64,000 nucleotides of DNA from a virus (IMGVR_UViG_3300015606_001334:128001-192000); one strand, 5' to 3'. Positions 318 through 19,482 are shown, counted from the stretch's first letter. Made by a program: numbers and translations. Notes: generated by a model from the sequence alone, not told the origin.

Positions 318-584
318 GTTCTAACAAAAAGTGGTTATTGGGTTTCAGAATAGTCGTAACTATCCCTAAGACAGTTTATCCAACTGACAAGCATCTGATT
401 ATTCTTTCAGCAAATATCCGATTTTCTCTTACCGGCAAAATGTTAGGATTCTTCCCAACGCATATCAAGTTTAATTCAAGGAGGATTTTAGTCCTTGTTC
501 CCTATGTTGCTACAAAACTTGCAAATCTATCAACTCCAAAGGACGGGTATCATATTTAGGTAACCAATTCCCAACGGTTAGAAC
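318..584 (-). ncRNA. Y-RNA-like ncRNA (long form)
   Basis: GTTCTAAC-C-G / TTTTTGTTAGAAC terminal helix with bulged C; upper stem followed by GTTACC. Confidence 0.65.
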
Positions 585-670
585 ATTAACTTTTAACCTA
601 ATCACTAGTGACATTTCTACAATAGCAGAATAATTTCTGCATATAAAAACTAATAGGTACTAATAGGTTT

Positions 671-744
671 TGGAGCGGGATAGGAGAATCGAACTCCTTT
701 AGCCAGCTTGGAAGGCTGGAACTCAACCAATGAGCCAATCCCGC
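671..744 (-). tRNA. tRNA-Gly(TCC)
   Basis: Cloverleaf, loop CTTCCAA, U73-CCA. Confidence 0.93.
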
Positions 745-748
745 AAAT

Positions 749-873
749 GATAAACGAAAGTAGTAATCGAAAGATAGCGCCTTTCAGCGAACTATTTGAT
801 GGGCTTGAACCATCTAACACGTGGATTATTAGTCCTCTTGTATTAACCGATAATCAATTACTTGCGGTTTATC
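749..873 (-). ncRNA. Y-RNA-like ncRNA with T-arm (YrlA-like)
   Basis: GATAAAC-C-G / CGTTTATC helix, ATTATC motif, internal GATGG-TTCAAGC-CCATC T-arm. Confidence 0.75.
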
Positions 874-875
874 TT

Positions 876-951
876 TGGTGGGTGTACGTGGATTTGAACC
901 ACGGACCATCGCCTTATCAAGACGGTGCTCTACCAACTGAGCTATACACCC
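876..951 (-). tRNA. tRNA-Ile(GAT)
   Basis: Cloverleaf, loop TTGATAA, CCA. Confidence 0.95.
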
Positions 952-956
952 ATTAA

Positions 957-1086
957 GCATCAACAAAATTTGCAGACCGAGAGAAGTAATTTCGGCATCC
1001 GTGAGGATTTAGGCTACTACAACCTTACCGTTTTTGTTTTCACCAAATTGAAGTAGATAGATAACAGTCCACAGGTCGGTTGGTAC
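957..1086 (-). ncRNA. Y-RNA-like ncRNA
   Basis: GTACCAAC-C-G / TTTTGTTGATGC helix, upper stem TGTGGACT/GGTCTGCA, GTTATC. Confidence 0.7.
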
Positions 1087-1087
1087 T

Positions 1088-1163
1088 TGGTGGAGCTAGT
1101 CGGACTCGAACCGACCACCTACAGCTTGCAAAGCTGCCGCTCTCCCAGATGAGCTATAGCCCC
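1088..1163 (-). tRNA. tRNA-Ala(TGC)
   Basis: GGGGCTA start, G3:U70, CCA. Confidence 0.96.
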
Positions 1164-1229
1164 AAGTAAAATACTGCATATAGACTATATATTGTTTCCT
1201 GCAGTATTTTTGTATTCTATCAAGAAAAA

Positions 1230-1523
1230 TTATTGTTGTAAACTGTTTTGCGCAACTTTATTTTCAGAGTTTTTACCAATATGGAATCCATCACAATGCA
1301 CACACTTGTAATTGCTGAAATAGACTCCACGCTTCTTCGCCATAGCTTGAGCTGCTTTGGTTGCAGAAGCTTTTGAGCTGTAAGAAATCTTTGGTTTGCC
1401 GTCTGCATTTTCGTGCGACCGCTTACTGAACAAACCAATCAAATGACCCTTTCGAAGGTTACGAATAAACCTTGAAAGAGGCAACTGATCTTTCAGTGCT
1501 AGATAAATGTTTCGGAGTTTCAC
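1230..1523 (-). CDS. hypothetical protein with Cys/His motif (YKCVHCDGFH)
   Basis: ORF; start overlaps upstream stop. Confidence 0.7.
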   Translation of the reverse strand: MKLRNIYLALKDQLPLSRFIRNLRKGHLIGLFSKRSHENADGKPKISYSSKASATKAAQAMAKKRGVYFSNYKCVHCDGFHIGKNSENKVAQNSLQQ

Positions 1524-1723
1524 TTGAGTATTTCGCGTAATTGATTTTGACGATCTGCTTTGTCGAGAAGGTCAGTTAGATCCAAGTCGGCTGGAGGAAC
1601 CCTGTCAGAGAGCTTATTGCGGTACAACAGCTCATTGACCTTCTCCTCCACCCTATAATATCGAGTCAAAATCCAATCAGCGATCGATTGAAAGTTCATG
1701 ATATGCAGCCTTGCGAGTAACAT
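1520..1723 (-). CDS. hypothetical protein
   Basis: ORF with AAGGAG RBS. Confidence 0.65.
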   Translation of the reverse strand: MLLARLHIMNFQSIADWILTRYYRVEEKVNELLYRNKLSDRVPPADLDLTDLLDKADRQNQLREILK

Positions 1724-1764
1724 GGTTTTCTCCTTAAGTGCATTATATCATAAATCCCGAAAAA

Positions 1765-2301
1765 TTACATGACTGGATCAACAGCCTTAACTTCTGGTTC
1801 AACTTTTGCTTGGGATACAGCTTGAGCGCCCTTAGTTCTGAGAAGAGAAACAAGAGAGCTTAGATCACGAGCAATACGGTCCAACTCAATTTGAAGCTTT
1901 TGCTTGTCTTCTGCGTTGATTAGCTCAGCCCAAAAGTTGATGCGTTCTTCTTGATCATGGGACTGTTTAACAATCTTTTCGATTGCAGTAGCATGGTCAA
2001 AGTCAGAAGTAACTAGAATCGAAAAGACAACGTCTCTTAGATTTTGCTGAAGAGTATTCGAAGAAATTTGCTTGTTGATGACGCGCTCGATCTTTTCAAG
2101 AGCTGCGCAGAACTTAGCAACATGTTCGCTAGACCAAAGTTCACCAACAGTTTCTGCTGGAGTTTTGCCGTTAGCGTAGGTGGTACGAAGGTTACGAATC
2201 ATTTCAGCCGCAGATTCGAATAGAAGATCAGAAGCTTGTGGGCTTGAGGACTCTAGAACCTGTTGGAATGAAAGAACCTGTTTGATGTCATTGATTTTCA
2301 T
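1765..2301 (-). CDS. hypothetical protein, probable late/virion-internal
   Basis: ORF; AATAAATA late-type box upstream; MKINDIK..LE N-terminus. Confidence 0.7.
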   Translation of the reverse strand: MKINDIKQVLSFQQVLESSSPQASDLLFESAAEMIRNLRTTYANGKTPAETVGELWSSEHVAKFCAALEKIERVINKQISSNTLQQNLRDVVFSILVTSDFDHATAIEKIVKQSHDQEERINFWAELINAEDKQKLQIELDRIARDLSSLVSLLRTKGAQAVSQAKVEPEVKAVDPVM

Positions 2302-2359
2302 AATAGAAATAGGGAGTAGTTGTCTACTCCCTATTTATTACTTCTTGATCTGAAAGCGA

Positions 2360-2770
2360 TTAAGCGAAGGACTTACGGGCCAGATCAACCGAGAAGGTCT
2401 TGAATTCGCCGGTGGCAGTTTCACGAACAATGATCGGCAAACGAGCATTTGCGCTACGGGCGCCGACGATCGTATATGCGCGACCTTGATGGGTCAGCTT
2501 ACGGCCAAGGTCTTCACGAGAAAGACCAAAGGAGAAGTAGTTTCGCATGAAGTTGGAAACCCACTTTGGATCGACGTCAGAACCGGCAGCCGAAGTATCT
2601 TCATTGAGGACCATCGACGTCATTTTGGCAGAGAACTCATTTTCAGAGTAGGTAATCTTGCCAACGCCGATCTTGATGCCGAACTTCTTTTCGACTTCAG
2701 CCAATGCCGCGGTCATTTCAGCACGGATCTGGTTGAGGTTGGAAGGATTGAAAGCGGCGATCTTGGTCAT
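2360..2770 (-). CDS. hypothetical early protein
   Basis: GAGGAG RBS, early promoter upstream. Confidence 0.75.
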   Translation of the reverse strand: MTKIAAFNPSNLNQIRAEMTAALAEVEKKFGIKIGVGKITYSENEFSAKMTSMVLNEDTSAAGSDVDPKWVSNFMRNYFSFGLSREDLGRKLTHQGRAYTIVGARSANARLPIIVRETATGEFKTFSVDLARKSFA

Positions 2771-2804
2771 CTTTGAAACTCCTCATCAGTTAATCGATAA
2801 GTTG

Positions 2805-2835
2805 TATTCTACACTCAAACCCGAAAAAGTAAACA
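2805..2835 (-). promoter_or_regulatory. early sigma70-type phage promoter (GTTTAC...TAGAAT)
   Basis: The GTTTAC(A/T)-~17-TA(T/G)AAT pattern recurs upstream of many minus-strand genes. Confidence 0.75.
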
Positions 2836-2840
2836 ACTTT

Positions 2841-3056
2841 TTATTCGTCGCTGTCTCTAAAGCGGAAGCCACAAGCCTCTAGATCTAGATCGGCAGGGAA
2901 GGTGTAATAATCTGGACCACCGTCATTTGCCCAATATGATTCTGGATCTTCTTCAATTAGATCTTCTGCCTTCTTGGTATCACGATACCAGTCAATACAG
3001 GAGGAACCATCACCCAAATCTCGAATTATGCTGCAGATTACTTGTTGTTCCGACAT
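2841..3056 (-). CDS. hypothetical protein
   Basis: ORF in tightly packed operon. Confidence 0.7.
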   Translation of the reverse strand: MSEQQVICSIIRDLGDGSSCIDWYRDTKKAEDLIEEDPESYWANDGGPDYYTFPADLDLEACGFRFRDSDE

Positions 3057-3214
3057 TTTGCTTCCTTTAGAAGTTCGTCTAAAATCTCTTGGTCGATTGC
3101 GTCAGAAAGGCGTCTAGCCGCAAGATCATAGCTTTTGTCCATGATTTGCTGCATAGGCGCCTTTTCTTTTATGAGTCCGTCTAGTTCTTGTTGTAATTGT
3201 GCGACGGACGTCAT
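3038..3214 (-). CDS. hypothetical protein
   Basis: ORF; likely start MTSVAQ. Confidence 0.6.
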   Translation of the reverse strand: MTSVAQLQQELDGLIKEKAPMQQIMDKSYDLAARRLSDAIDQEILDELLKEAKCRNNK

Positions 3215-3216
3215 GA

Positions 3217-3501
3217 TTAGCGGCTTGCTACTGCGAGACGCTTGGAGTCGTAAGTGACTTCGCCGACACAACCAACTTTACGCATTGCTGCTGCCATCTT
3301 TTGACGGATGTCGTATTCTTGACCGCCCCAAACTGGGCCATACGTAGCAACGATTTCAGCGCCATCAGAATAGATGTTTGCAGAAATCAGTTTGATACCA
3401 GAACGCTTGGCAAAATCGAGAACAACTTCTTTAGCCTTGGCGCCACGAGTTTTGGATAGGTTGATTTTGGACGTAACAACGCCCTGAGTCTTTTGTTGCA
3501 T
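3217..3501 (-). CDS. hypothetical protein
   Basis: ORF in operon. Confidence 0.7.
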   Translation of the reverse strand: MQQKTQGVVTSKINLSKTRGAKAKEVVLDFAKRSGIKLISANIYSDGAEIVATYGPVWGGQEYDIRQKMAAAMRKVGCVGEVTYDSKRLAVASR

Positions 3502-3502
3502 T

Positions 3503-3706
3503 TCAGGATTCCTTATCTAAGGAGTGGTTAAAAAACTTTTGATTGTACGGGGCCTTGCGCTCACAATGAACGCTTGTGATGATAGACAGAATTGCCAGTA
3601 GAACTGCAGCAAATCCGCTAATTGTATCTGACTGGTACAGTCCCGAAATTAGGGACATTGTAAGGCAATCAAAAAGATTTAGACGACGGCCGAAAAGAAA
3701 ATTCAT
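3503..3706 (-). CDS. small membrane protein
   Basis: Hydrophobic segments. Confidence 0.6.
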   Translation of the reverse strand: MNFLFGRRLNLFDCLTMSLISGLYQSDTISGFAAVLLAILSIITSVHCERKAPYNQKFFNHSLDKES

Positions 3707-3936
3707 TGATTAGATGGAGGGATTTCTCCCTCCACATCCTTACTCTTCGGACTTCTTCGGCTTACGGGCATTGCGCCAGTAGTTGGAAGAGGAGGCGCTC
3801 CACCAAGAATGCTTCTTGGTCTTGTTTTGGCGAGCACCAACGTTGAACGGCTGGGCTGCTGGGTTGGAAGGATGATTTTGGTACTGAAGCTTCTGAGACA
3901 TTTAGTCTTCTCCTTGTTGAAATTTATTGAATCTTG

Positions 3937-4134
3937 TTAGTCGCCGCCGAAATCGCCAAAAGAATCAGCCAAACCGGCAGCACCTTCGCCAGATGCGAAT
4001 CGAAAAATTAGCCCGATTACCGCGCCAATAATCGATCCGATAATGCAATGCTGGTCAAAAGCAAATTCGCCTACCAAACCGCCAATCGAACCGAAAATCA
4101 GAACTAAAACAAAAGTAATCATCACTTTCTCCAA
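3937..4134 (-). CDS. small two-TM membrane protein
   Basis: Gly-rich hydrophobic helices. Confidence 0.6.
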   Translation of the reverse strand: MEKVMITFVLVLIFGSIGGLVGEFAFDQHCIIGSIIGAVIGLIFRFASGEGAAGLADSFGDFGGD

Positions 4135-4156
4135 AAGATGAGAAATTATAAACTAC

Positions 4157-4453
4157 TCATTTCTTATTGTAAACTGGTTTTTCAATCAGGGCATTAAAAT
4201 ATTCATTGATGAAATTACTAATAACTGCTTGCAACGCCCTCATAGAACGAGCAAAAGTTAAACTGACTGCGATAATTTGGTATGGGGTCTCAATGTACTT
4301 ATCTACTAGTTGTCTAATTTGGTCATGAGAAAACTCATCGAGCATCTGAAGAGTATCAACAGAATATCCATGATCAATCAGTAGAGAGGAAATGTATAAG
4401 GGACCAGCTGAAAGACTAAATGTCTCTGCGCTGATTACAACTACTTCTGCCAT
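4157..4453 (-). pseudogene. truncated B12-binding-domain (radical SAM N-terminal)-like fragment
   Basis: GPLYISSLLIDHGYSVD...IIAVSLTF resembles the cobalamin-binding N-domain; no CxxxCxxC domain follows. Confidence 0.4.
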
Positions 4454-4458
4454 TATTC

Positions 4459-5124
4459 TTAAAATTTAATCTTTCTGCCTTCACCCCATCCATCAGGAAG
4501 ACATTCTATCTTTTTTATTTTCTTGGAAATTTTCAATTCTAGATTGTGAATCCATCTTAATCCAAATTGAGAATTATTTTCTCCGGCATTTTTAGACTTT
4601 TGCATTTTCTGTTTGGTCTCTTCACTATGAGTCTTTCCTAAGAATGCGGTATTTCCTTTTCCGCCGAATGGCTTTTCACCATTTTCAGAACGAAGTTTCC
4701 AAGCTTCTGATAAACTATTACTCACTTTCGACTTGTACGTCGGGTCTGAAGACATTTTATCTGAATGCGCTTTTACCCATTGCCAGCATCTCTTGTCTAT
4801 CTCTTCGCGAGACGAATTTACGTGATACCATCCACCTTCTCCTCCTTGACGAAGATTCATGCAGAGCTTGTCGCTAATCAATTCAATAGTAACAAGCTCT
4901 TTCTCTCTCGCTACTAAATCTTCTCTTGAAAAGTAGTGCTCAAGAATTTCCATTTCATGGTTTTCTTTACCATATTTGTTTATCGATTTCCACAAATATG
5001 TTCCACTTCCAAAATAACCGTCATTTAGGTTATCTGTTGAATGCATTCCAATGTAAAACTTACCATTAAGCTTATTGATGATTCGATAAATATAATGGTA
5101 CTTTCTTCTTGACGCTCTTGTCAT
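4459..5124 (-). CDS. GIY-YIG homing endonuclease (Seg-like, NUMOD3)
   Basis: YIYRIINKLNGKFYIGMH; GKTHSEETKQKM; TATAAATA upstream. Confidence 0.9.
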   Translation of the reverse strand: MTRASRRKYHYIYRIINKLNGKFYIGMHSTDNLNDGYFGSGTYLWKSINKYGKENHEMEILEHYFSREDLVAREKELVTIELISDKLCMNLRQGGEGGWYHVNSSREEIDKRCWQWVKAHSDKMSSDPTYKSKVSNSLSEAWKLRSENGEKPFGGKGNTAFLGKTHSEETKQKMQKSKNAGENNSQFGLRWIHNLELKISKKIKKIECLPDGWGEGRKIKF

Positions 5125-5185
5125 TTCAAAATACTCTTAAACTAATAGGAGTATTTATATGAGGAAATGGCACTTTTATTCCGGG

Positions 5186-5259
5186 TCGGAGTAGAGAGAT
5201 TCGAACTCCCGACATCCTGCTCCCAAAGCAGGCGGTCTACCAGGCTGACCTATACTCCG
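5186..5259 (-). tRNA. tRNA-Pro(TGG), CCA not encoded
   Basis: Cloverleaf, loop TTTGGGA; 3' end reads A-CCCGG. Confidence 0.93.
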
Positions 5260-5399
5260 AAATGAGGGTCCTAACTTATACCACGTCATCTAAATCCCTA
5301 CCCTCGGAAGGAAGTAGCACTTTGGCGCTGTATAAGCCATCAATCACTGGGTAACGAACTTCAGGTCCAGCTGCATTGATGTTGTAAAACTATTTATTG

Positions 5400-5429
5400 A
5401 ATTATATCAACTTACCAGAAAAAGTAAAC
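5400..5429 (-). promoter_or_regulatory. early promoter GTTTACT...TATAAT
   Basis: Matches the recurring consensus. Confidence 0.75.
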
Positions 5430-5447
5430 TGATGTTGTGAAATTCTT

Positions 5448-5693
5448 TTAGGAATTTGCCCAAGCTCTGAGGTCATCGACTGTCTTGACACCAGACACTC
5501 GCTTTATTTCTTTGCCTGATTCAAGCATTACAAGGGTAGGAACGCCACGAATCTTGTACTCGGCGGAAAGGTCGCCCATTTCATCGACGTCAATTTCTTC
5601 TACAGGAACAGTCAGTTGAGCCTGTTCTAGATTCTTTGCCAGCATCTTACAAGGTTGGCACCACGTTGCGGAGAACTTTAGGATCTTTTTCAT
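5448..5693 (-). CDS. trxA: thioredoxin
   Basis: FSATWCQPC active site, IRGVPT. Confidence 0.9.
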   Translation of the reverse strand: MKKILKFSATWCQPCKMLAKNLEQAQLTVPVEEIDVDEMGDLSAEYKIRGVPTLVMLESGKEIKRVSGVKTVDDLRAWANS

Positions 5694-6270: not shown

Positions 6271-6304
6271 ACGAAATCAAATTAAATTGTAGATGGCAAC
6301 ATCC

Positions 6305-8504: not shown

Positions 8505-8649
8505 TGGTGGAGCCGACGGGTCTCGAACCACGTACGTCGCAAGGACACCGGTTTTACCTTAGATAACCATTTTCTGTCGGCTTATTTCTAAGCAAAAGTT
8601 TGAAAACGACTTTTTTGACCGGCGCGTCTACCAATTTCGCCACGACTCC
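8505..8649 (-). ncRNA. tRNA-Leu-type body with Y-RNA-like module in anticodon loop
   Basis: Leu D-loop, variable arm, A-CCA; CCGGT/ACCGG stem encloses CTTTTGCTTA-GAAA-TAAGC-C-G...GGTTATC. Confidence 0.8.
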
Positions 8650-8652
8650 ATT

Positions 8653-8770
8653 CGGTGGGGAGGAGTGGGTTTGAACCACTGACCTTCAGCGGAATACTGA
8701 TCACCTCAAGGCGGCCGCCAGATGAATGTTCTTCCAAACGCTGATGCTCTACCAACTGAGCTACCTCCCC
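8653..8770 (-). ncRNA. tRNA-like RNA with ~49-nt anticodon-loop insertion
   Basis: Normal acceptor, D and T arms; TCAGC/GCTGA stem; ends A-CCG. Confidence 0.75.
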
Positions 8771-9346: not shown

Positions 9347-9430
9347 TTTTAACTCCTTGTTATGATTTACTACAAGGAGAATTATATTTCAATTTTCAAT
9401 TTTTGTAAACTGAAATTGAAAATTTGTTTT

Positions 9431-9558
9431 TGGTTGAGGCGGAAGGAATCGAACCTTCTCTAGTCGGATATGAGTCGAGATAACCATCCACGAGCGGCGT
9501 ATCTCTACGCAAAAGTTGCAGGCGATGTTTTCCTGTGCTGCCAGTACACTACGCCTCA
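9431..9558 (-). ncRNA. tRNA(CAT)-like body with Y-RNA-like module before the anticodon hairpin
   Basis: TGAGGCG/CGCCTCA-A-CCA; CTTTTGCGTA-GAGA-TACGC-C-G...GGTTATC, then CTCATAT loop and T-arm. Confidence 0.8.
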
Positions 9559-10623: not shown

Positions 10624-10751
10624 TGGTGCCCCGACCCGGGATCGAACCGGGATGACCGAAGTCGACAGATTTTCTTAAGCGGGCTCAGTCACTAAGTTTC
10701 AGAACCCGCTTCGTGAAAGTCTGTTGCGTCTACCAATTTCGCCATCGGGGC
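10624..10751 (-). ncRNA. tRNA-Leu body with hairpin insertion in anticodon loop (possible intron)
   Basis: Leu D-loop and variable arm, CCA; AAGCGGGTTC/GAGCCCGCTT helix inside the loop. Confidence 0.8.
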
Positions 10752-12064: not shown

Positions 12065-12136
12065 GGCTTTTCCTTTCGTTTGAATGACTACCACAATTGA
12101 AATTATATCAAAATTTCGGGAAATGTAAACAAATTT

Positions 12137-12700: not shown

Positions 12701-12758
12701 GATAATTCTCCGTCTATGATTGAATTATATCACAAACCGAAAGAATGTAAACAAAATT

Positions 12759-13010: not shown

Positions 13011-13152
13011 AGGTCTCCCTGGATGGACTCGAACCATCGGCCCCCATAATTCCGCAGCTTAAGATGAGTTGCTACCCATCTCCGAAAATTCCATTTCGAT
13101 TTGGTCCTTTACCATGAGCGGTGGAGAGCTCTACCAACTGAGCTACAGGAAG
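13011..13152 (-). ncRNA. tRNA-like RNA with ~70-nt structured anticodon-arm expansion
   Basis: Intact acceptor, D and T arms; ends A-CCT. Confidence 0.75.
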
Positions 13153-13154
13153 AT

Positions 13155-13514
13155 TTACATTTGCGAAGAAACCCACCTTCGGACTTCTTCAATCTTGAAC
13201 GGCTTAACGAAGTATCGATCGGCCTGTCTTTCTACTAAAGCTAGAATATTTTGCTCTTCTGGATCTTTTCCAGACATGAGAGCTATCTTAACGTCATCAA
13301 AATCCTTAAAGGACTTTATTGCGGCGAGTGTTTGATAGCCATTCATTTTGGGCATCATCAGATCAAGCAGGATCACCTTTGGTTTTACTTGGCATAAGAT
13401 TTCTAATGCTTCCAATCCATCTTTAGCCTGGATCACCTCATACTGCTTCTCAAGTATTGCTTGTAGTAATCTGCGAACATGCGGATTATCGTCTATGATT
13501 AGGACCGTTCCCAT
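13155..13514 (-). CDS. single-domain response regulator (receiver)
   Basis: VLIIDD, ILLDLMMPKMNG, FVKPF; start MGTVL with AGGA RBS. Confidence 0.9.
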   Translation of the reverse strand: MGTVLIIDDNPHVRRLLQAILEKQYEVIQAKDGLEALEILCQVKPKVILLDLMMPKMNGYQTLAAIKSFKDFDDVKIALMSGKDPEEQNILALVERQADRYFVKPFKIEEVRRWVSSQM

Positions 13515-13531
13515 AATATTTCCTATTGGCT

Positions 13532-13616
13532 TGGTGCCCAGGGTGGGACTCGAACCCACACGCCTTTCGGCACTGGCTTCTAAGACCAGCGCGTCTACCA
13601 ATTCCGCCACCTGGGC
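13532..13616 (-). tRNA. tRNA-Leu(TAG)
   Basis: Class II cloverleaf, loop CTTAGAA. Confidence 0.95.
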
Positions 13617-13716
13617 ATTTGATGGTATCAACTAACTTTTCGATCGCATTGTCCGTCTCTCCTATGCTCGAATACCTAAAGTACGGACTTTCTATCATGA
13701 CATCGTTTCAACCATC

Positions 13717-13985: not shown

Positions 13986-13990
13986 ATAAG

Positions 13991-14096
13991 ACTAACAAAA
14001 GTAGAAATTGACTAAAGTTGCATCCAGCATTCAAGAGGAGAATCGAACTCCTAACTCCATTTTCGCAGAATAGATAACCAATTTCAAGCGGTTAGC
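13991..14096 (-). ncRNA. YrlA-like Y RNA (T-arm, then D-like loop)
   Basis: GCTAAC-C-G / CTTTTGTTAGT, GGTTATC, AGGAG-TTCGATT-CTCCT. Confidence 0.8.
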
Positions 14097-14098
14097 TT

Positions 14099-14174: not shown

Positions 14175-14211
14175 ATAGAAAGGAACTTTGTTAAGAGTTC
14201 CTTTTTGTTAA

Positions 14212-14481
14212 TTAAGCGCTTTCAGAGCCGCTCTTAACGAATGCATCTAGCGACTTTTGAGCTGCTTCGCTAAATGGGGTGACTTCGATTACTTGAGACC
14301 AAGTAACTGCACCAAGATCAACAGATTCACCAACTGCAACGGTGACTTCGTCGAATGGATAAGAAGTCTTATCAGCTTCGTCGACTACTGGACCGTCGCC
14401 GTTTGCGACGTTGTAAACCTTACCAGACTTTTTGAATTGAACCTTGACTGGATTTTGTGCTTCGTTTTTGAAAACAGACAT
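14212..14481 (-). CDS. hypothetical protein
   Basis: AGGAG RBS, start MSVFKN, terminator hairpin downstream. Confidence 0.7.
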   Translation of the reverse strand: MSVFKNEAQNPVKVQFKKSGKVYNVANGDGPVVDEADKTSYPFDEVTVAVGESVDLGAVTWSQVIEVTPFSEAAQKSLDAFVKSGSESA

Positions 14482-14554
14482 TTTATTTCTCCTATAAGAA
14501 AACAACATGTTGTGGGTAACCAACAATGCTATTTATATTTTTCGGAGATTCATT

Positions 14555-14630
14555 TGGTGCCCCAGGACTAGAATTGAACTGTCGACCCCTTCCTTACAAG
14601 GGAAGTGCTCTACCACTGAGCTACAAGGGC
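14555..14630 (-). tRNA. tRNA-Thr(TGT)
   Basis: Loop CTTGTAA. Confidence 0.92.
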
Positions 14631-14706
14631 ATTTGCGATTTAAACCTTGAAGGCCTCCATTTCTGGACGTTACTACAAACCTTAAGATGACGCATGAGTT
14701 ATTTAT

Positions 14707-14791
14707 TGGTGCCCATCGCCGGACTCGAACCGGCACTCCTTTCGGAAGTAGATTTTGAGTCTACCGCGTCTACCAATTCCGCCAGACGGGC
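14707..14791 (-). tRNA. tRNA-Leu(CAA)
   Basis: Loop CTCAAAA, variable arm. Confidence 0.95.
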
Positions 14792-14923
14792 AAGGCGTTT
14801 ACTTAACCGTATGATCCAAGATGCCATCCTTCAAAGGTGGCCTATGTCAGTCACGATTTCTACGGTCTTCTCTGACTCAGCTGTCATACTCACTGCAGAA
14901 TTTTGTATGACAAACAAGTAAAC

Positions 14924-14998
14924 TGGTGCCCAAGGTTGGAATCGAACCTACGACCTCTTTCGTACCAAGAAAGCGTTCTACCACTGAACTACGAGGGC
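14924..14998 (-). tRNA. tRNA-Thr(GGT)
   Basis: Loop TTGGTAC. Confidence 0.92.
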
Positions 14999-15008
14999 AT
15001 AAAATGTT

Positions 15009-15095
15009 TGGTGCTCTAGGAGGGACTCGAACCCTCACGTCCTTTCGGACACAACGACCTCAACGTTGCGCGTCTACCAATTCCGCCACCAGAGC
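15009..15095 (-). tRNA. tRNA-Leu(GAG)
   Basis: Loop TTGAGGT, variable arm. Confidence 0.95.
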
Positions 15096-15099
15096 ATTT

Positions 15100-15202
15100 T
15101 GGCCCATCGCGAAGGATTTGAACCTTCATTTAACCTGGACGGAATCGAACCGTCTCGTTGGGATTCGCGCGAATAGTACCCAGGGAACCAACCCACGATG
15201 GA
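15100..15202 (-). ncRNA. tRNA-like RNA with two T-arms
   Basis: GACGG-TTCGATT-CCGTC and GAAGG-TTCAAAT-CCTTC inside a TCCATCG/CGATGGG helix with CCA. Confidence 0.65.
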
Positions 15203-15516
15203 TGGTGGAAACTGGCGAGGGGCTCATTCCCCACAACCTTCCAATCACGAAGTCTTATTAAGCTACAACACTCCACTTAATGGACTGGCCGGTCCAAGAA
15301 GCTTCATCATGTTGGGAGGACTTGTTTCCTCCACCTCGGCGTCTTCTGAGCTATAATAATTTATTAGAGCTACCACCTTGGAGCGCTCTCGAATGCATGG
15401 TATCCAGCCCCTACATTCTACACTCTTCTGCTTTAGACTCCGTGACCTACTCAGTACCAATGGCTGGCCCATTGTACTTTTATCCCGAAGAACGGATATA
15501 ATCAGTCACAGTTTCC
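15203..15516 (-). ncRNA. ~314-nt structured RNA with acceptor-like stem and CCA
   Basis: GGAAACTG/CAGTTTCC-A-CCA; multiple internal helices. Confidence 0.65.
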
Positions 15517-15594
15517 GGCGCTGAAGGTAGGATTCGAACCTACAACCCCCACACAATGAGGCAGGAGCTCTTACCAAACGAGACTTACATCAGC
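15516..15594 (-). tRNA. atypical tRNA (CAT-containing 8-nt loop)
   Basis: T-arm intact; D and anticodon arms irregular; ends G-CCG. Confidence 0.55.
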
Positions 15595-15715
15595 AAAATC
15601 GAAAGGTATCAGTTACCAGGCTGATCTTTATTCATTAGTTCAGCATCTCTCGCATCCACTTTTTCAGGGGAGAGCAACCTTCCTAACTATTCGCCTAAAT
15701 TTCTTAGGACCTTTC

Positions 15716-15800
15716 TGGTGCCCTGGGAGGGACTCGAACCCACACGCCTTGCGGCGCCAGAACCTAAATCTGGTGCGTCTACCAATTTCGCCACCAGGGC
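15716..15800 (-). tRNA. tRNA-Leu(TAG)
   Basis: Loop TTTAGGT. Confidence 0.95.
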
Positions 15801-15876
15801 AATTCATTATGGCTAACTTCGGATCCTTGGCCTTCGGCGTTCTAGTAGTTAGCAACGTACCCGTCATAATGAAATT

Positions 15877-15962
15877 TGGAGCGCAGGGTGTGATTCGAAC
15901 ACACGTGGGATTTCTCCGAGAGGTTTGCAATCTCCCGCCTTCGACCGCTTGGCTACCTGCGC
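15877..15962 (-). tRNA. tRNA-Cys(GCA) with long variable arm
   Basis: Loop TTGCAAA, U73-CCA, extra GGA-GAAA-TCC arm. Confidence 0.85.
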
Positions 15963-16243
15963 AAAGTGTACGTGGTGACTAGCCTTAAGTATCATGCCTG
16001 ATACAATTGGTGCCGTACGAACCATTCGTAATTTTTACATCTTCGATCAGATGGCTACCATCAGCGGTTTGCCTTTCTGCCAGTCGAATAACCCAGAGAT
16101 TGGTCAAATGGGCTTCTTTTGATTATCGATTCACGAAGAGAAAAACGGCTTTCATACGATGCAAGCAGCACGCCTAGCGACTCAGTCCTAGGAGAGGTCC
16201 CTTAACCTGGAAATCTAGGAGATTCACTTAGTCAAAATGAATC

Positions 16244-16321
16244 TGGCCTCGCGAGAGGGATTCGAACCCCCGACCCGCTGCTTAGAAGGCAGCTGCTCTA
16301 GTCCAACTGAGCTACCGCGAG
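16244..16321 (-). tRNA. tRNA-Arg(TCT)
   Basis: Loop CTTCTAA. Confidence 0.95.
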
Positions 16322-16503
16322 AAAAACAATTCTTAGCCCTGGAATTACTTATGAGAATCCGCATAGTTCCAGTTTAACGGCCCTCACTAAGAATTGGGCG
16401 CATATGGAGATCATTGAAATCGTCTATCACCGTGCTTAGTTTCGTACTGAAGCGTACGTCTTTAGACTTATCGGCACCGTCACCCTTCCGGCTCATATGC
16501 GTA

Positions 16504-16765
16504 GTCATTGACAAAATTTAGATATCGGATATTCAGAGAAAAGCGAACTTAACTCCTAGTTAGATGGGTCAGTCACCTAACAACCGCCTACTTATTCTTA
16601 GTAGGAAATATCGACGTTATTCTATGTCGACAATAATCAAATTGTAATCGAGGAGGAGCAAGCTCCTTGTTCCCTCTGTTGTCCGTCAATTTGAAAAAAT
16701 AGACAACATCTCAATTAAGGACGATCATTAGCTATTAAGATAACCAATATCTCGCGGTCAATGAT
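16504..16765 (-). ncRNA. Y-RNA-like ncRNA (long form)
   Basis: CATTGAC-C-G / TTTTGTCAATG, AGATATTGG/CCGATATCT, GTTATC. Confidence 0.75.
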
Positions 16766-16841
16766 TGGTGGAACTGAAGGGAATCGAACCCTCAACATCT
16801 AGCTTGCAAAGCTAGCGCTCTCCCAATTGAGCTACAGCCCC
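16766..16841 (-). tRNA. tRNA-Ala(TGC)
   Basis: G3:U70, loop TTTGCAA. Confidence 0.95.
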
Positions 16842-17014
16842 AAAGTAAATGATATTTAATGTTCCAGCTTTTGGCATACTCTCTTAGGCTTCAGACCCAG
16901 GGATGTCAGCCCTTTTGCGCCTGCCAGGTTTCTTGCATGAACTTTTGACAGATTTTCTCATGCTCAAGGAATCCACCCAAACCAGCGTGTAACTTAGAGG
17001 GCTTCCATATCATT

Positions 17015-17100
17015 TGGTGCACCAGGTAGGATTCGAACCTACTCACCCAGAGGGAACAGATTTACAGTCTGCCGTAACTCTCCAACTTTACCGCTAGTGC
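17015..17100 (-). tRNA. tRNA-Tyr(GTA)
   Basis: Loop CTGTAAA, variable arm. Confidence 0.92.
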
Positions 17101-17106
17101 AATACA

Positions 17107-17224
17107 ATCAAACAAAGATAAAAATCGAATTGCTGCGCCCAATTTCTTGCAGCTCATAAATCCGAAGACCTATGATGGAGTCGAACCATTCATCTGATAG
17201 ATAATCGATTTTCGACGGTTTGAT
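17107..17224 (-). ncRNA. YrlA-like Y RNA (complete permuted tRNA domain)
   Basis: Bulged-C helix, ATTATC, T-arm, acceptor-like stem closed by TTCG, D-like arm. Confidence 0.85.
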
Positions 17225-17310
17225 TGGTGGTCTATCTAGGTAACGATCCTAGCCAACCCGAAGGTATCAGTTTTACAGACTGCGCGGCGTCCTTAGCCGA
17301 ATACTAGACC
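17225..17310 (-). tRNA. atypical tRNA-Tyr(GTA)
   Basis: Loop CTGTAAA; non-canonical T-loop ATCGTTA. Confidence 0.75.
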
Positions 17311-17317
17311 TTGAAAC

Positions 17318-17467
17318 TTAAAAATGCTCTTTTGTTACTTGATACTCAGGAGAAGGATATTCTTCCTTCTTAGCTTTCAAAAGCTCATTTGCTTCTGCTA
17401 CAGTGAGACACTTACGAGTAAAAACCGTAGTGTATCCCTTCATAACCACAATGTGCCAAAACTTCAT
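17318..17467 (-). CDS. hypothetical protein (49 aa)
   Basis: GGGAG RBS, start MKFWH. Confidence 0.65.
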   Translation of the reverse strand: MKFWHIVVMKGYTTVFTRKCLTVAEANELLKAKKEEYPSPEYQVTKEHF

Positions 17468-17488
17468 GCTTACTTCTCCCTTAATAAT

Positions 17489-17562
17489 TGGTTGCGGGCA
17501 GGGGAATCGAACCACCTTCCCAACTGGCTTATGAGACCAGCGTCAGACCTTCTGAACCCGCA
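17489..17562 (-). tRNA. tRNA-Met/Ile2(CAT), short D-arm
   Basis: Loop CTCATAA, A-CCA. Confidence 0.8.
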
Positions 17563-17569
17563 ATTGAGA

Positions 17570-17644
17570 GATAAACAAAGGAGTGGAAATTGGGGATTGG
17601 ATCAAAGTGGAAGTTTGAGATAACCAATTTCCTTTCGGTTTATC
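17570..17644 (-). ncRNA. minimal Y-RNA-like RNA with pyrimidine-rich loop
   Basis: GATAAAC-C-G / CTTTGTTTATC, GGAAATTGG/CCAATTTCC, GTTATC. Confidence 0.8.
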
Positions 17645-17735
17645 TGGCGGAGGCGGTGAGATTCGAACTCACGGACCTTTTTAGGGATCGGTAGTTTTCA
17701 AGACTACTGCGTTAAACCAGCTCTGCCACGCCTCC
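17645..17735 (-). tRNA. tRNA-Ser(TGA)
   Basis: Loop CTTGAAA, long variable arm, G-CCA. Confidence 0.95.
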
Positions 17736-18068
17736 ATTTTTACGATTCCTCGACTTGTAAGTACTCAACTGTGAATCACAATTGCTACAGACAAATCTTA
17801 GATTTTCTAATCTATTGTCGTTGTTAACACCGTTGATGTGGCCAAGAATTAATGGCATAGGTTTCCCTTGCCATTCAGGACCAATTCCACAGCATGCGCA
17901 ACGATATTCGATTAACTTTCCATCTAATATTCGACTCTTTACATGATGTCTAGCGAGAGTCGAATTTTCAGAAAAAACTTCTTCATCCGTCTTTCTTATC
18001 GACCGATGATACTCTGTTAATCCTGGTTTCTTTCCTTTATTCCAAGGGACACTTCCTTTTGATGCCAT
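17712..18068 (-). CDS. HNH endonuclease
   Basis: CACCG...HINGVNNDNRLENLRFVCSNC. Confidence 0.85.
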   Translation of the reverse strand: MASKGSVPWNKGKKPGLTEYHRSIRKTDEEVFSENSTLARHHVKSRILDGKLIEYRCACCGIGPEWQGKPMPLILGHINGVNNDNRLENLRFVCSNCDSQLSTYKSRNRKNGGVAELV

Positions 18069-18128
18069 AATCTGCTAAAAGTTATTTCAACAGATGTATT
18101 TATTGCACCAGTTTGTGAAACAATAGGG

Positions 18129-18192
18129 AATCAAACAAAAAGCGATGATCGACGCTTTTCCAATAAGATAACCAATCATCAACGGTTTGATT
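18129..18192 (-). ncRNA. minimal (64 nt) Y-RNA-like RNA
   Basis: AATCAAAC-C-G / TTTTTGTTTGATT, GATGATTGG/TCGATCATC, GTTATC. Confidence 0.8.
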
Positions 18193-18283
18193 TGGCTCCG
18201 GCCTCAGGGATCGAACCTGATTGAAACCTTATGAGGGCCTCCTGGTTAACAGCCAGTTGCTCTACCAATTGAGCTACGCCGGA
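18193..18283 (-). tRNA. tRNA-Asn(GTT) with extra CAT-loop arm
   Basis: Loop CTGTTAA; variable arm GGCC-CTCATAA-GGTT. Confidence 0.85.
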
Positions 18284-18290
18284 ATTGTAA

Positions 18291-18400
18291 ACTAACAAAA
18301 ATAGATATCGAGTAATGCGGCACCCAGCTTCCAAATCGGGAATCGAACCCAATCCTTCGTTTTTTCCATAAAAAGAGATAACCGATATCAAGCGGTTAGT
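18291..18400 (-). ncRNA. YrlA-like Y RNA
   Basis: ACTAAC-C-G / TTTTTGTTAGT, GGTTATC, T-arm TTGGG-TTCGATT-CCCGA. Confidence 0.8.
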
Positions 18401-18476
18401 TGGTTGCGGGAGTTGGACTTGCACCAACCTTGGCCAGCTTATGAGACTGGTGATGAACTTTCTCCTCTATCCCGCA
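18401..18476 (-). tRNA. atypical tRNA-Met/Ile2(CAT)
   Basis: Loop CTCATAA, T-loop TGCAAGT. Confidence 0.75.
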
Positions 18477-18483
18477 ATCAAAA

Positions 18484-18599
18484 GATAAACAAAACTAGTA
18501 ATCGATGAACCTCTTTCGAGGGTGAAGGGCTTGAACCTTCTAACTTGTGGATGATTAGTCCTCTCGTATTATCCGATAACCAATTACTCACGGTTTATC
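18484..18599 (-). ncRNA. Y-RNA-like RNA with T-arm; paralogue of 749-873
   Basis: Same helix and GAGGACTAAT...TCCAC segment. Confidence 0.8.
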
Positions 18600-18982
18600 A
18601 ATTACTTCTTCCTTTTCCTCCTTTAGCTGACATATTCCTATGCCATTCTTTGAACTCTTCAGGAGAAAGAGAATTCTTCATTTTTGTTATGTATGAAATT
18701 CGTTTATTCTGACGATAATCATCTCTCAAATTATCTGAGTATGTTCCCCAATACAAATGATTTGGATTTGAGCATTTACCATTTCCACAGCCATGACAAC
18801 AAATAACTTTCTTACCTGTCGGTATTGTGGTTTTAAGATGGTGTGCTAATAACCCTCTAAATTCTACAGAGCTATATCCACCAATTTCAATACAAGGCTC
18901 GTCAAGTTTAAGGTGCTTCTGTCTATCTTCTACAGGAAGCTCAATATACTCAAGAATTTCTACGAAACTGGTAGGAGACATG
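18598..18982 (-). CDS. HNH-type (Zn-binding) homing endonuclease
   Basis: CCHGCGNGKCSNPNHLYWGT..DN; nearest ATG lies inside tRNA-Lys. Confidence 0.7.
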
Positions 18983-19043
18983 GGACTCGAACCCACAACC
19001 TCGACATTAAAAGTGTCTTGCTCTACCATTGAGCTAATCTCCC
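18969..19043 (-). tRNA. tRNA-Lys(TTT)
   Basis: Loop CTTTTAA. Confidence 0.92.
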
Positions 19044-19055
19044 ATTAAATGAATC

Positions 19056-19130
19056 TGGTGGTCGATGCTGGATTTGAACCAGCGACCTATCGCTTATCAA
19101 GCGAGTGCTCTACCACTGAGCTAATCGACC
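19056..19130 (-). tRNA. tRNA-Ile(GAT)
   Basis: Loop TTGATAA. Confidence 0.95.
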
Positions 19131-19169
19131 AGCAGGAATGACTGCAATCATTCCTTTACTACTATGTAC

Positions 19170-19298
19170 CGGTGCAGTCTGAAGGAATCGAACCTCCGTC
19201 TTCGCCTTGTAATGGATAACCATTTTCAAGCGGTTCATTTTCATGAACAAATTCAGAAAACGATGTTTATCGCTGTTCTACCACTGAACTAAGACTGC
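19170..19298 (-). ncRNA. tRNA-Val(TAC)-like body with Y-RNA-like module
   Basis: TTTGTTCAT-GAAA-ATGAAC-C-G...GGTTATC, then CC-ATTACAA-GG; ends A-CCG. Confidence 0.8.
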
Positions 19299-19353
19299 AA
19301 AAATGAATCTGGCCTAAATACCATTAGGTTGGTACAACTTTACCGCAGATTCA

Positions 19354-19482
19354 AGGTGGAGAGTAGAGGATTCGAACCTCTGACCACGTGCTTAACAGGC
19401 AGATAACCAATTTCGGCCGGTTTGAGCAAACAAACAAAGAGTGAAATCGACATTTACGTGCTCTACCACTGAGCTAACTCCC
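19354..19482 (-). ncRNA. tRNA(GTT)-like body with Y-RNA-like module in anticodon stem
   Basis: ACG-[insert ending GGTTATC]-TGC-CTGTTAA-GCACGT; ends A-CCT. Confidence 0.8.

What the first reader, a model, noticed from the sequence alone, without database searches (positions are those of the whole stretch)
318..19482. Expanded family of 14 Y-RNA-like (Ro60/Rsr-binding) modules interleaved with the phage tRNA cluster
Seen: one motif recurs on the minus strand. Its parts are a lower helix with a bulged C (..AAC-C-G), an upper stem, (G)GTTATC, a variable domain, and the 3' strands of both stems separated by a CTTT bulge (..TTTTGTT..). Helix sequences differ between copies but keep pairing (GATAAAC/GTTTATC, CATTGAC/GTCAATG, CCAAC/GTTGA, TACGC/GCGTA). 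Free-standing copies: 318-584, 749-873, 957-1086, 13991-14096, 16504-16765, 17107-17224, 17570-17644, 18129-18192, 18291-18400, 18484-18599. Four more lie inside tRNAs. Known: a bulged-C helix with an opposite pyrimidine bulge is the Ro60-binding site of Y RNAs, and UUAUC follows the upper stem in vertebrate Y1/Y4 and nematode sbRNAs. Bacterial Rsr/Y RNA works with PNPase and the RtcB repair operon, usually with 1-2 Y RNAs. Inference: the phage uses one protein-binding handle on many cargo domains (64-267 nt) to program or titrate a Ro protein. No TROVE gene lies in this window.
Basis: partly seen in the sequence, partly recalled or inferred. Interest (0 to 1): 0.95.

Follow-up and report, generated by a model that had tools for sequence, protein, structure and literature searches.

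The report
Fourteen Y-RNA-like handles among phage tRNAs
A 360-kb uncultured phage that encodes its own Ro60/Rsr protein carries 14 small RNA genes in its tRNA cluster, all sharing the two-helix "handle" of known bacterial and phage Y RNAs; that is far more than the one or two Y RNAs usually found beside a Ro gene, and four of them are whole tRNA bodies with the handle grafted into the anticodon arm.

Summary
All 14 copies exist at the stated places on the minus strand: 10 free-standing and 4 circularly permuted inside tRNA-like bodies. A strict descriptor gives 16 hits in the genome against about 1.3 in simulated genomes. Both helices covary strongly (94.6% of cells paired against 66.6% shuffled; 14 of 16 pairs with double changes).

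- The genome encodes a full-length Ro60/Rsr (TROVE plus vWA_Ro60, 535 aa) about 79 kb from the nearest copy.
- The same descriptor picks out the published YrlA beside the Ro gene of mycobacteriophage Catera.
- The handle has the geometry of the Rfam YrlA consensus, including the YUAY motif at nt 21-25.
- A model trained here hits 15 of 47 TROVE-positive viral contigs and 1 of 44 TROVE-negative ones.

Binding to Rsr is inferred, not shown. Rfam's YrlA, Y_RNA and sbRNA models do not reach threshold. No RtcB gene is present.

Multi-copy handles inside tRNA arrays also occur, unannotated, in the cultured phages Catera and Phosso. This scan has already noted an analogous arrangement, with a different handle, in Felix O1-type phages. 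I class this as a new variant of a known kind: an expanded, tRNA-array-embedded Y RNA repertoire that includes unpermuted tRNA-Y chimeras.

The parts
319..583 (-). Free-standing handle RNA m1. Long (about 220 nt) cargo, variant GGUUACC, no T arm. Ends 6 nt before tRNA-Arg.
749..873 (-). Free-standing handle RNA m2. Cargo is a 3-bp hairpin with a 7-nt anticodon-like loop, a T arm and a capped hairpin. Lies 2 nt after tRNA-Ile and 4 nt before tRNA-Gly.
   Evidence: (111.7 bits)
958..1085 (-). Free-standing handle RNA m3. Variant CUGUUAUC, so it is missed by the strict descriptor and by model R1. Lies between tRNA-Ala and tRNA-Ile.
8505..8649 (-). Chimera tF. A type-II (Leu-like) tRNA body ending in CCA, whose anticodon loop holds the permuted handle (8562-8609).
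9431..9558 (-). Chimera tG. A tRNA-like body with acceptor stem, T arm and CCA, carrying the permuted handle (9479-9525). A mini-hairpin with loop CUCAUAU follows the handle.
13990..14097 (-). Free-standing handle RNA m4 with a T arm. Lies 1 nt after tRNA-Asn and 4 nt before tRNA-Gly.
16506..16763 (-). Free-standing handle RNA m5. Its long cargo is paralogous to that of m1 (about 50% identity). Lies 2 nt after tRNA-Ala.
17107..17224 (-). Free-standing handle RNA m6 with a T-arm-like hairpin. Ends 6 nt before tRNA-Tyr.
17570..17644 (-). Minimal handle RNA m7 (75 nt, no tRNA-like part). Starts 0 nt after tRNA-Ser. Not used in training and found by R1 at E 1e-6.
18130..18191 (-). Minimal handle RNA m8 (62 nt). 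Starts 1 nt after tRNA-Asn. Not used in training and found by R1 at E 9e-9. It aligns weakly and not significantly to the nematode sbRNA family RF01656.
18290..18401 (-). Free-standing handle RNA m9 with a T arm. Lies between a tRNA-like element (18404-18476) and tRNA-Asn.
18484..18599 (-). Free-standing handle RNA m10. Cargo is an anticodon-like mini-hairpin, a T arm and a GAAA-capped hairpin. It starts at the stop codon of a homing-endonuclease-like ORF.
19173..19298 (-). Chimera tD. A tRNA (Rfam 46.9 bits) with the permuted handle (19215-19263) emerging from the 5' strand of the anticodon stem. The distal hairpin keeps the loop AUUACAA.
19357..19483 (-). Chimera tE. A tRNA (Rfam 49.5 bits) with the permuted handle (19402-19450). 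Deleting 55 nt would restore the anticodon arm CGUGC-CUGUUAA-GCACG (Asn GUU).

Best explanation
These are phage Y RNAs of the bacterial YrlA/YrlB class. Each carries one conserved handle: a 7-bp lower helix ending in C-G, a 4-5-nt 5' loop beginning C-G, a 9-bp upper helix, single-stranded UUAUC, and a U-rich 6-8-nt 3' loop. That handle is the docking site for the phage's own Ro60/Rsr ring protein. The RNAs are transcribed on the minus strand as part of the polycistronic tRNA transcripts. They are cut out by the enzymes that mature the flanking tRNAs: RNase P at the next tRNA's 5' end, and 3'-end processing of the preceding tRNA. The variable cargo ranges from nothing, through partial permuted tRNA mimics (mini-hairpin, T arm, capped acceptor-like hairpin), to long unknown domains and whole tRNA bodies. 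It would act as the second module of a Y RNA, a tether or gate that decides what the Rsr particle contacts (host PNPase in known systems). Shown here: the family, its structure, its placement, the Rsr gene, and the shared build with a published phage YrlA. Inferred: transcription and processing, Rsr binding, and any effector role of the cargo.
For: - Motif enrichment and genome-wide specificity.
- Covariation of both helices across phages.
- A full-length Ro60/Rsr in the same genome and on the same strand.
- Positive control: in Catera the descriptor hit L153:3713-3854 encloses the Rfam YrlA tRNA-like domain (3750-3827) just upstream of the Ro gene. Two short handle RNAs flank it, and two more sit between tRNAs in that phage's array.
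- The Rfam YrlA consensus has the same two-helix, asymmetric-loop and CUA layout.
- Chen et al. 2014 report YUAY at nt 22-25 and a 5' GNCGAA motif. UUAYC starts at nt 21-22 in every free-standing copy.
- T arms occur in 7 of 14 copies, as in YrlA.
- The handle is present in cultured Ro-encoding Sinorhizobium phage Phosso and in several uncultured TROVE-positive jumbo phages.
- R1 hits 15 of 47 TROVE-positive contigs against 1 of 44 TROVE-negative ones, Fisher p = 1.8e-4.
- 7 of 10 copies start 0-2 nt after a tRNA 3' end and 8 of 10 end 4-7 nt before the next tRNA.
- A phage Ro60 binding phage Yrl RNAs and host PNPase has been shown experimentally for Thermus phage phiLo (PMC12135203).
Against:
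- Rfam YrlA, Y_RNA and sbRNA models do not reach threshold on any copy, even when a copy is searched alone.
- The copies lie 79-98 kb from rsr, whereas published YrlA genes lie within 4 kb of it.
- Only one copy (m7) carries CCGAA; most read CCG followed by U or C, not the GNCGAA motif.
- Free-standing copies lack a recognisable D arm.
Confidence: 0.7

Rival explanations
1. The handle is the site of a different factor. Candidates are a processing signal for RNase III or RNase E, or the binding site of another phage protein, used to separate and mature tRNAs in long arrays. On this view it travels with Ro60 only because both are traits of the same phage lineages.
For: The copies sit exactly in tRNA spacers, abutting tRNA ends. 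The Rfam Y RNA models are silent.
Against: A mere spacer or processing helix would not need conserved single-stranded CG, UUAUC and U-rich loop motifs at fixed spacing. It would also not appear inside tRNA anticodon arms. The same build forms the closing stem of the YrlA next to the Ro gene in Catera, outside any tRNA array. It occurs in phages of Actinobacteria, of alpha-proteobacteria and in this uncultured phage, all of which encode Ro60.
Confidence: 0.15
2. The handle is a small intron or insertion element of tRNA genes. In the four chimeras it is excised and the tRNA halves are ligated. In the free-standing form the same cuts would release or circularise the cargo.
For: Deleting 55 nt from 19357-19483 restores a perfect anticodon arm, CGUGC-CUGUUAA-GCACG, and ARAGORN with its intron option calls tRNA-Asn. 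Deleting the insert from 19173-19298 gives a 4-bp stem with loop AUUACAA. The phage has two RNA-ligase-family genes. Three further tRNA genes carry 40-65-nt inserts of another kind.
Against: The would-be 3' junction lies at different offsets from UUAUC in the two best cases. The other two chimeras (8505-8649, 9431-9558) do not give a canonical anticodon arm after any simple deletion. No archaeal-type splicing endonuclease and no RtcB is encoded. The 'restored' arm is equally explained as a three-way junction in which the distal anticodon hairpin is kept, and the same mini-hairpin follows UUAUC in the free-standing copies m2 and m10. The free-standing and Catera copies have no exons to join.
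Confidence: 0.08
3. The copies are decaying tRNA pseudogenes or repeats with no function of their own. Their shared sequence would reflect recent duplication only.
For: Several cargos hold tRNA fragments (T arms), and m1/m5 and m2/m10 are paralogous pairs.
Against: The helices change sequence while keeping pairing, whereas the loop motifs stay fixed: 9 different lower helices among the 14 copies, and 14 of 16 pairs with double changes. The handle is conserved in distant phages whose cargo is unrelated.
Confidence: 0.03

Closest known systems
Bacterial YrlA/YrlB Y RNAs bound by Rsr (Salmonella, M. smegmatis; Rfam RF02553; Chen et al. 2014, PMC4201824)
   Same: A closing stem of two helices separated by an asymmetric internal loop with a CG-containing 5' strand. 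YUAY lies right after the upper helix at about nt 21-25. Then follow an optional small hairpin, a T arm and a capped acceptor-like hairpin. The genome encodes Ro60/Rsr on the same strand. Minimal copies without a tRNA-like part parallel YrlB.
   Different: There are 14 copies rather than 1-2. They lie 79-98 kb from rsr inside the tRNA array rather than within 4 kb of it. Free-standing copies have no clear D arm. Most copies read CCG followed by U or C rather than GNCGAA. The Rfam model does not score them. Four copies have the reverse topology: open acceptor ends and a capped handle.
Mycobacteriophage YrlA (ET08 in Chen et al. 2014; found here in Catera, NC_008207)
   Same: The same descriptor finds it: 7-bp lower helix ending GGC, then C, GAGA, a 9-nt strand ending GG, then UUACC, with matching 3' strands. 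Catera also has two short handle RNAs beside its YrlA and two more between tRNAs of its array.
   Different: Catera's copies are GC-rich, with a CAU-type 3' loop instead of CUUUU. It has 5 copies against 14 here, and no tRNA chimeras were seen in the parts examined.
Thermus phage phiLo phiRo60 with Yrl1/Yrl2 (PMC12135203)
   Same: A phage-encoded Ro60 with phage-encoded Y-like RNAs built as stem, internal loop, stem. Binding to the phage Ro60 and assembly with host PNPase were shown experimentally there.
   Different: phiLo has two RNAs directly upstream of the Ro gene. Its Ro60 is very distant from this one (E 5e-7). I did not examine the phiLo RNA sequences.
Metazoan Y RNAs and nematode stem-bulge RNAs (for example Rfam RF01656)
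   Same: The RF01656 consensus printed by cmscan reads lower helix, CCG, upper helix, GGGUUAUC, and aligns column for column with copy m8. From my own memory, human Y1 and Y4 also carry GUUAUC directly after the upper stem.
   Different: The match is not significant (10.8 bits, E 6.3 on 81 nt), and the Rfam Y_RNA model gives nothing. The likeness is one of architecture, and common descent is not shown.
Felix O1-type phage Ro60-like protein with four handle RNAs
   Same: A phage Ro-like protein plus several small RNAs sharing one handle, hidden among tRNA genes.
   Different: According to those notes the protein is a different, more distant Ro-like type, the handle signature is different (UACAGCAA), and the RNAs lie next to the gene. 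I did not re-examine those loci.

Membership tests
Y RNA (functional definition) | The RNA is bound by Ro60/Rsr | not testable with these tools
   No RNA-protein assay or RNA-protein modelling is available here. Binding is inferred from the shared build with YrlA.
Y RNA (functional definition) | The genome encodes a Ro60/Rsr orthologue | tested here: met
   A 535-aa ORF with TROVE (E 5e-40) plus vWA_Ro60 (E 2e-56). It aligns end to end with D. radiodurans Rsr 2nvo (E 1e-102) and Xenopus Ro60 1yvp (E 3e-100).
YrlA/YrlB class | The 5' and 3' ends form a two-helix stem with an asymmetric internal loop | tested here: met
   Shown by the folds, by covariation, and by comparison with the Rfam YrlA consensus structure.
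YrlA/YrlB class | GNCGAAN0-1G motif near the 5' end (Chen et al. 2014) | tested here: inconclusive
   Copies in this window read (A/G)ACCG followed by any base, and only m7 has CCGAA. Copies in G004, Phosso and Catera read GCCGAU, GCCGAA or GCCGAG.
YrlA/YrlB class | Conserved YUAY at about nt 22-25, directly after the stem | tested here: met
   UUAYC starts at nt 21-22 of all ten free-standing copies. The feature is quoted from PMC4201824.
YrlA (Rfam RF02553) | tRNA-like domain with T and D arms, scoring at or above the family's gathering score (69 bits) | tested here: not met
   No copy is hit. The only YrlA hits (23-29 bits) span tandem tRNAs, a false positive that Chen et al. describe. A T arm is present in 7 of 14 copies, and a D arm only in the four chimeras.
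YrlA (as catalogued by Chen et al. 2014) | Encoded within 4 kb of the Ro60 gene on the same strand | tested here: not met
   The strand is the same, but the distance is 79-98 kb. No YrlA-like RNA was found beside rsr.
Metazoan Y RNA / sbRNA (Rfam RF00019, RF01656) | Significant match to the family model | tested here: not met
   RF01656 scores 10.8 bits (E 6.3), and RF00019 is absent from the list.
Protein-spliced tRNA intron | A splicing endonuclease or RtcB is available, and precise excision restores a tRNA | tested here: not met
   No PF01974 and no PF01139 match in the phage. Restoration is clean in one of four chimeras only. Host enzymes could not be examined.

The most novel reading that the evidence does not exclude
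The four chimeras are working, unpermuted Y RNAs: full tRNA bodies with CCA ends that carry the Ro handle on the anticodon stem. The phage would then field a graded repertoire, from bare handle to complete tRNA. With it, its Rsr particle (together with host PNPase or the phage's RNA ligases) could be steered to tRNA-recognising machinery. Possible roles are decoys or sensors for host anticodon nucleases, or a quality-control or repair platform for the phage's own large tRNA set. The same chimeras would be the evolutionary link showing that YrlA arose from a tRNA by insertion of the handle into the 5' side of the anticodon stem, followed by circular permutation. The YrlA 'V' hairpin would then be the remnant of the anticodon hairpin.
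Probability: 0.2. Interest if true: 0.85.

Novelty: new variant of a known kind. Interest (0 to 1): 0.62.

Why it matters
Ro60 and its Y RNAs are conserved from bacteria to humans, yet what the second, variable module of a Y RNA does is still largely open. In the studied bacterial systems there are one to a few Y RNAs, encoded beside the gene.

Here one phage pairs a single Rsr with 14 RNAs that keep the handle and vary everything else. The same hidden arrangement is present in cultured, tractable phages: Bxz1-type mycobacteriophages and Sinorhizobium phage Phosso. That turns the question "what does the cargo domain do?" into a comparative and experimentally testable one.

It also shows that catalogues restricted to the 4 kb around rsr, or to RNAs with a full tRNA-like domain, undercount Y RNAs. 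The tRNA-bodied chimeras offer a concrete model for how tRNA-mimicking Y RNAs originated. Many "empty" spacers in phage tRNA arrays may in fact be genes.

Tried and rejected
- Rfam at gathering and at E <= 10, on the region, on rsr's flanks and on single copies. It returned only tRNAs, the tmRNA, spurious YrlA hits across tandem tRNAs, and a non-significant sbRNA alignment.
- RtcB (PF01139) and the archaeal tRNA-splicing endonuclease (PF01974) in the phage: both absent.
- The intron reading of the chimeras: considered because one case restores a perfect anticodon arm. Rejected as a general explanation because the junction offsets differ and two chimeras cannot be restored.
- An exact-pattern scan of IMG/VR for the 5' motif. 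Most of the listed loci gave no significant R1 match on the fetched stretch and looked like chance matches; only L087 and L083 did, and whole-record searches then found copies in two further large records picked for size (L055, L041). I reused 44 of the other records as controls.
- A first, loose descriptor had a high false-positive rate (about 70 hits per simulated genome). I replaced it with a stricter one.
- MAFFT alignment of all copies misaligned the short and long ones, so the model was built from five mid-sized copies. R1 misses m1, m3 and m5 and scores GC-rich relatives poorly.
- Two review papers on bacterial Y RNAs were not held in the library.
- DNA search of the cultured-phage collection with the cluster found only tRNA-level similarity, so there is no close cultured relative.

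Full report
**1. What the window is**

The window is bases 128001-192000 of a 359,550-bp IMG/VR phage record rated complete. Its first 21 kb hold about 30 tRNA genes on the minus strand. The nine best sigma-70-like sites (10-11 of 12 matches; seven read TTTACA) all lie on the minus strand, although the total count of promoter-like sites is not above chance. No close cultured relative exists.

**2.

- Reading the minus strand shows the recurring unit: a 7-bp lower helix ending in C, then C-G plus 1-4 nt, a 9-nt strand ending G(G/A), UUAUC, variable cargo, the 3' strand of the upper helix, a U-rich 6-8-nt stretch, and the 3' strand of the lower helix.
- The 5' motif occurs 10 times against 0.07 expected. 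Genome-wide it is confined to this cluster.
- Minimum-free-energy folds reproduce the two helices in nearly all copies.
- A loose descriptor proved unspecific. A strict one gives 16 hits in the genome against 1.3 on average in simulated genomes. Thirteen of these lie between 319 and 19450 on the minus strand.
- Ten copies are free-standing and four are circularly permuted. In the permuted form the order is upper-3' strand, U-rich loop, a 5-6-bp lower helix capped by a 4-6-nt loop, C-G, upper-5' strand, UUAUC. Each permuted copy sits inside a tRNA-like body.
- A covariance model built from five copies finds the two minimal, untrained copies at E 9e-9 and 1e-6, and nothing else in the genome.
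- On 21 copies from this and other phages, 94.6% of cells pair (shuffled 66.6%, slid 28-48%), and 14 of 16 pairs change on both sides. The alignment is model-fitted, which favours the structure somewhat. However, the raw helix sequences listed show the same compensation.

**3. The missing protein is in the genome**

A search of the whole record for TROVE finds one gene at G000:C1:47685-49292, also on the minus strand. It is a full-length Ro60/Rsr with TROVE and the Ro60-type vWA domain. It aligns end to end with D. radiodurans Rsr (E 1e-102) and with Xenopus and human Ro60 (E about 1e-100). It lies 79-98 kb from the RNA copies, and no Y-like RNA lies next to it. RtcB is absent. Two RNA-ligase-family genes are present.

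**4. The handle is that of known Y RNAs**

- Rfam's own models do not detect the copies. The reason is visible in the YrlA consensus: most of that model is the T arm, acceptor-like stem and D arm.
- The outer part of the consensus is nevertheless the same build: a 6-bp lower helix, a 5-nt 5' loop, a 7-bp upper helix, then CUA, with an 8-nt 3' loop ending ACUUG.
- Chen et al. 2014 describe a 5' GNCGAA motif as the likely Rsr contact and a conserved YUAY at nt 22-25 that opens the next element. Here UUAYC begins at nt 21-22 in all ten free-standing copies.
- Mycobacteriophage Catera serves as the positive control, since phages of this type were among the published YrlA carriers. The Rfam YrlA hit lies at L153:3750-3827, just upstream of the Ro gene. 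My descriptor, derived only from this window, returns L153:3713-3854 around it, with C-GAGA, a strand ending GG and UUACC.
- The descriptor also returns two short handle RNAs on either side of that YrlA. Two more lie in Catera's tRNA array, between tRNA-Met and tRNA-Cys and between tRNA-Val and tRNA-Lys, where the record annotates nothing.
- The minimal copy m8 aligns column by column with the consensus of a nematode stem-bulge RNA family (lower helix, CCG, upper helix, GGGUUAUC). The score is not significant, so the likeness to animal Y RNAs is architectural only.

**5. Co-occurrence with Ro60**

- An exact-pattern scan of IMG/VR returned mostly loci with no significant R1 match, which look like chance hits. 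Five records were followed up, and R1 matched in four of them. The three near-complete jumbo records (336, 350 and 462 kb) all encode TROVE. The fourth is a 47-kb fragment on which no TROVE gene was found. Each holds several copies.
- The cultured Sinorhizobium phage Phosso has a gene annotated as a Ro-like RNA-binding protein. It carries at least three copies in unannotated gaps.
- Of 47 TROVE-positive viral contigs of at least 60 kb, 15 have an R1 match at E <= 0.01 (24 matches in 9.4 Mb).
- Of 44 TROVE-negative contigs, one has a match (2.6 Mb). These were themselves pre-selected for containing the 5' motif, which makes the control conservative. Fisher p = 1.8e-4.
- Caveats: the control contigs are smaller, relatedness is not controlled, and R1 is narrow (trained on AT-rich copies), so it misses divergent handles.
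- The 3' loop differs by lineage: CUUUU here, ACACUU in the Phosso group, CAU in Catera. The closing pairs of the lower helix differ with it. That is what one would expect if the loop co-evolves with its protein, but this was not tested.

**6. Anatomy and likely biogenesis**

- Seven of ten free-standing copies begin 0-2 nt after the CCA end of a tRNA, and eight of ten end 4-7 nt before the next tRNA or tRNA-like element. The simplest inference is that they are released by the enzymes that mature the neighbouring tRNAs. This is inferred, not shown.
- Cargo is graded. Two copies have almost none (62 and 75 nt). Five have partial, permuted tRNA mimicry: m2 and m10 have a mini-hairpin with a 7-nt loop, a T arm and a capped acceptor-like hairpin, while m4, m6 and m9 keep mainly a T arm or T-arm-like hairpin. 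Two share a long unknown domain, and one (m3) is unclear.
- The four chimeras have the same order of elements as YrlA but start from the other end. They have open acceptor ends (three of the four with an encoded CCA; tD ends CACC), a D arm, the capped handle, UUAUC, a mini-hairpin or loop remnant, the variable region and a T arm.

**7. Intron or three-way junction?**

In 19357-19483, removing 55 nt recreates a perfect Asn anticodon arm, which at first suggested an intron. Several points argue against that reading:
- The junction sits at a different offset from UUAUC in 19173-19298.
- The other two chimeras cannot be restored by any simple deletion.
- No splicing endonuclease or RtcB is encoded.
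- The same mini-hairpin follows UUAUC in the free-standing m2 and m10.

I therefore read the chimeras as tRNAs in which the handle projects from the 5' side of the anticodon stem. I keep splicing as a minor rival (0.08).

**8. Comparison with what is known**

- Phage Ro60 genes are common: 377 cultured phage records match this one.
- Y-like RNAs next to them were reported in 22 phages.
- For Thermus phage phiLo, binding of two such RNAs to the phage Ro60 and to host PNPase has been shown.
- A survey of jumbo phages mentions TROVE proteins with "a tRNA-like partner".
- What I did not find described is (a) a repertoire of 14 in one genome, (b) location inside the tRNA array and far from rsr, (c) the handle as a portable module on unrelated cargos, and (d) unpermuted tRNA-handle chimeras. 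My literature reach was limited, because two reviews were not held.
- Earlier notes of this scan report an analogous arrangement, with another handle and a more distant Ro-like protein, in Felix O1-type phages. Other first-reader notes on this same stretch agree with the present reading.

**9. Verdict**

- Observation: confirmed.
- Interpretation: supported as to identity (Y RNAs of the YrlA/YrlB class, confidence 0.7). Untested as to binding and function.
- Novelty: a new variant of a known kind.
- Interest: 0.62.

Noticed in passing
window 8656-8770, 10627-10751, 13014-13152 (minus strand): Three further tRNA genes (Rfam 59, 44 and 38 bits) carry 40-65-nt insertions in the anticodon loop or arm that lack the Y handle. 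ARAGORN with its intron option calls Pro(UGG) with a 40-nt insert at the canonical 37/38 position and Leu(UAA) with a 43-nt hairpin insert. These are far too short for group I introns, and no splicing endonuclease gene was found in the phage.
   Followed up: partly
window 28013-28466 (minus strand): A phage-encoded circularly permuted (two-piece) tmRNA. Rfam tmRNA_permuted scores 94.6 bits, and ARAGORN reads the tag peptide as ANDESYRVAA.
   Followed up: no
window 17227-17310, 17492-17562, 18404-18476 (minus strand): tRNA-like elements that ARAGORN does not call. Two have a CAU anticodon loop (Rfam tRNA 21.6 and 39.7 bits). One has an odd T loop and ends ...GACCACCA directly before handle RNA m6.
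   Followed up: no
window 319-583 and 16506-16763 (minus strand): The two long-cargo copies share a roughly 220-nt domain at about 50% identity, with a conserved block GGGAACAAGGA followed by a hairpin. It matches no Rfam family.
   Followed up: partly
window 17712-18068 and 18598-19029 (minus strand): Two small ORFs with weak HNH / His-Me homing-endonuclease signatures sit between RNA genes in the array. The stop codon of the second overlaps the first bases of handle RNA m10.
   Followed up: partly
window 13155-13631 (minus strand): A stand-alone response-regulator receiver-domain protein (Pfam E 5e-24) is encoded in the middle of the tRNA array.
   Followed up: no
window 15100-15700, 16000-16240, 16322-16505, 19500-19930 (minus strand): Long non-coding spacers in the array lack the handle, and some contain extra T-arm-like hairpins (for example two in 15110-15180). 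They may hold other small RNAs.
   Followed up: no
NC_008207.1 (Catera) 91678-91792, 92606-92712; L153:3615-3685 and 3891-3958: Unannotated handle RNAs in a well-known cultured mycobacteriophage. Two lie in tRNA spacers (Met/Cys, Val/Lys), and two short ones flank the YrlA upstream of the Ro gene.
   Followed up: partly
PV764938.1 (Phosso) 19155-19289, 24188-24321, 24425-24560: Three handle RNAs of the GGC / ACACUU type lie in unannotated gaps of a 469-kb Sinorhizobium phage whose Ro-like gene is more than 260 kb away.
   Followed up: partly
G000:C1:95016-95714 and 86520-87716 (outside the window): Two RNA-ligase-family (PF09414) genes, one of them with an N-terminal OB-fold domain. This gives the phage an RNA-repair context despite the absence of RtcB.
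   Followed up: partly
window 1214-1242, 4145-4173, 9381-9409, 12102-12129, 12724-12751, 19887-19915 (minus strand): Recurrent promoter-like sites, TTTACA-N16/17-TATAAT (some with a variant second hexamer, TACAAT or TAGAAT), all on the minus strand. They divide the RNA cluster into several transcription units.
   Followed up: no
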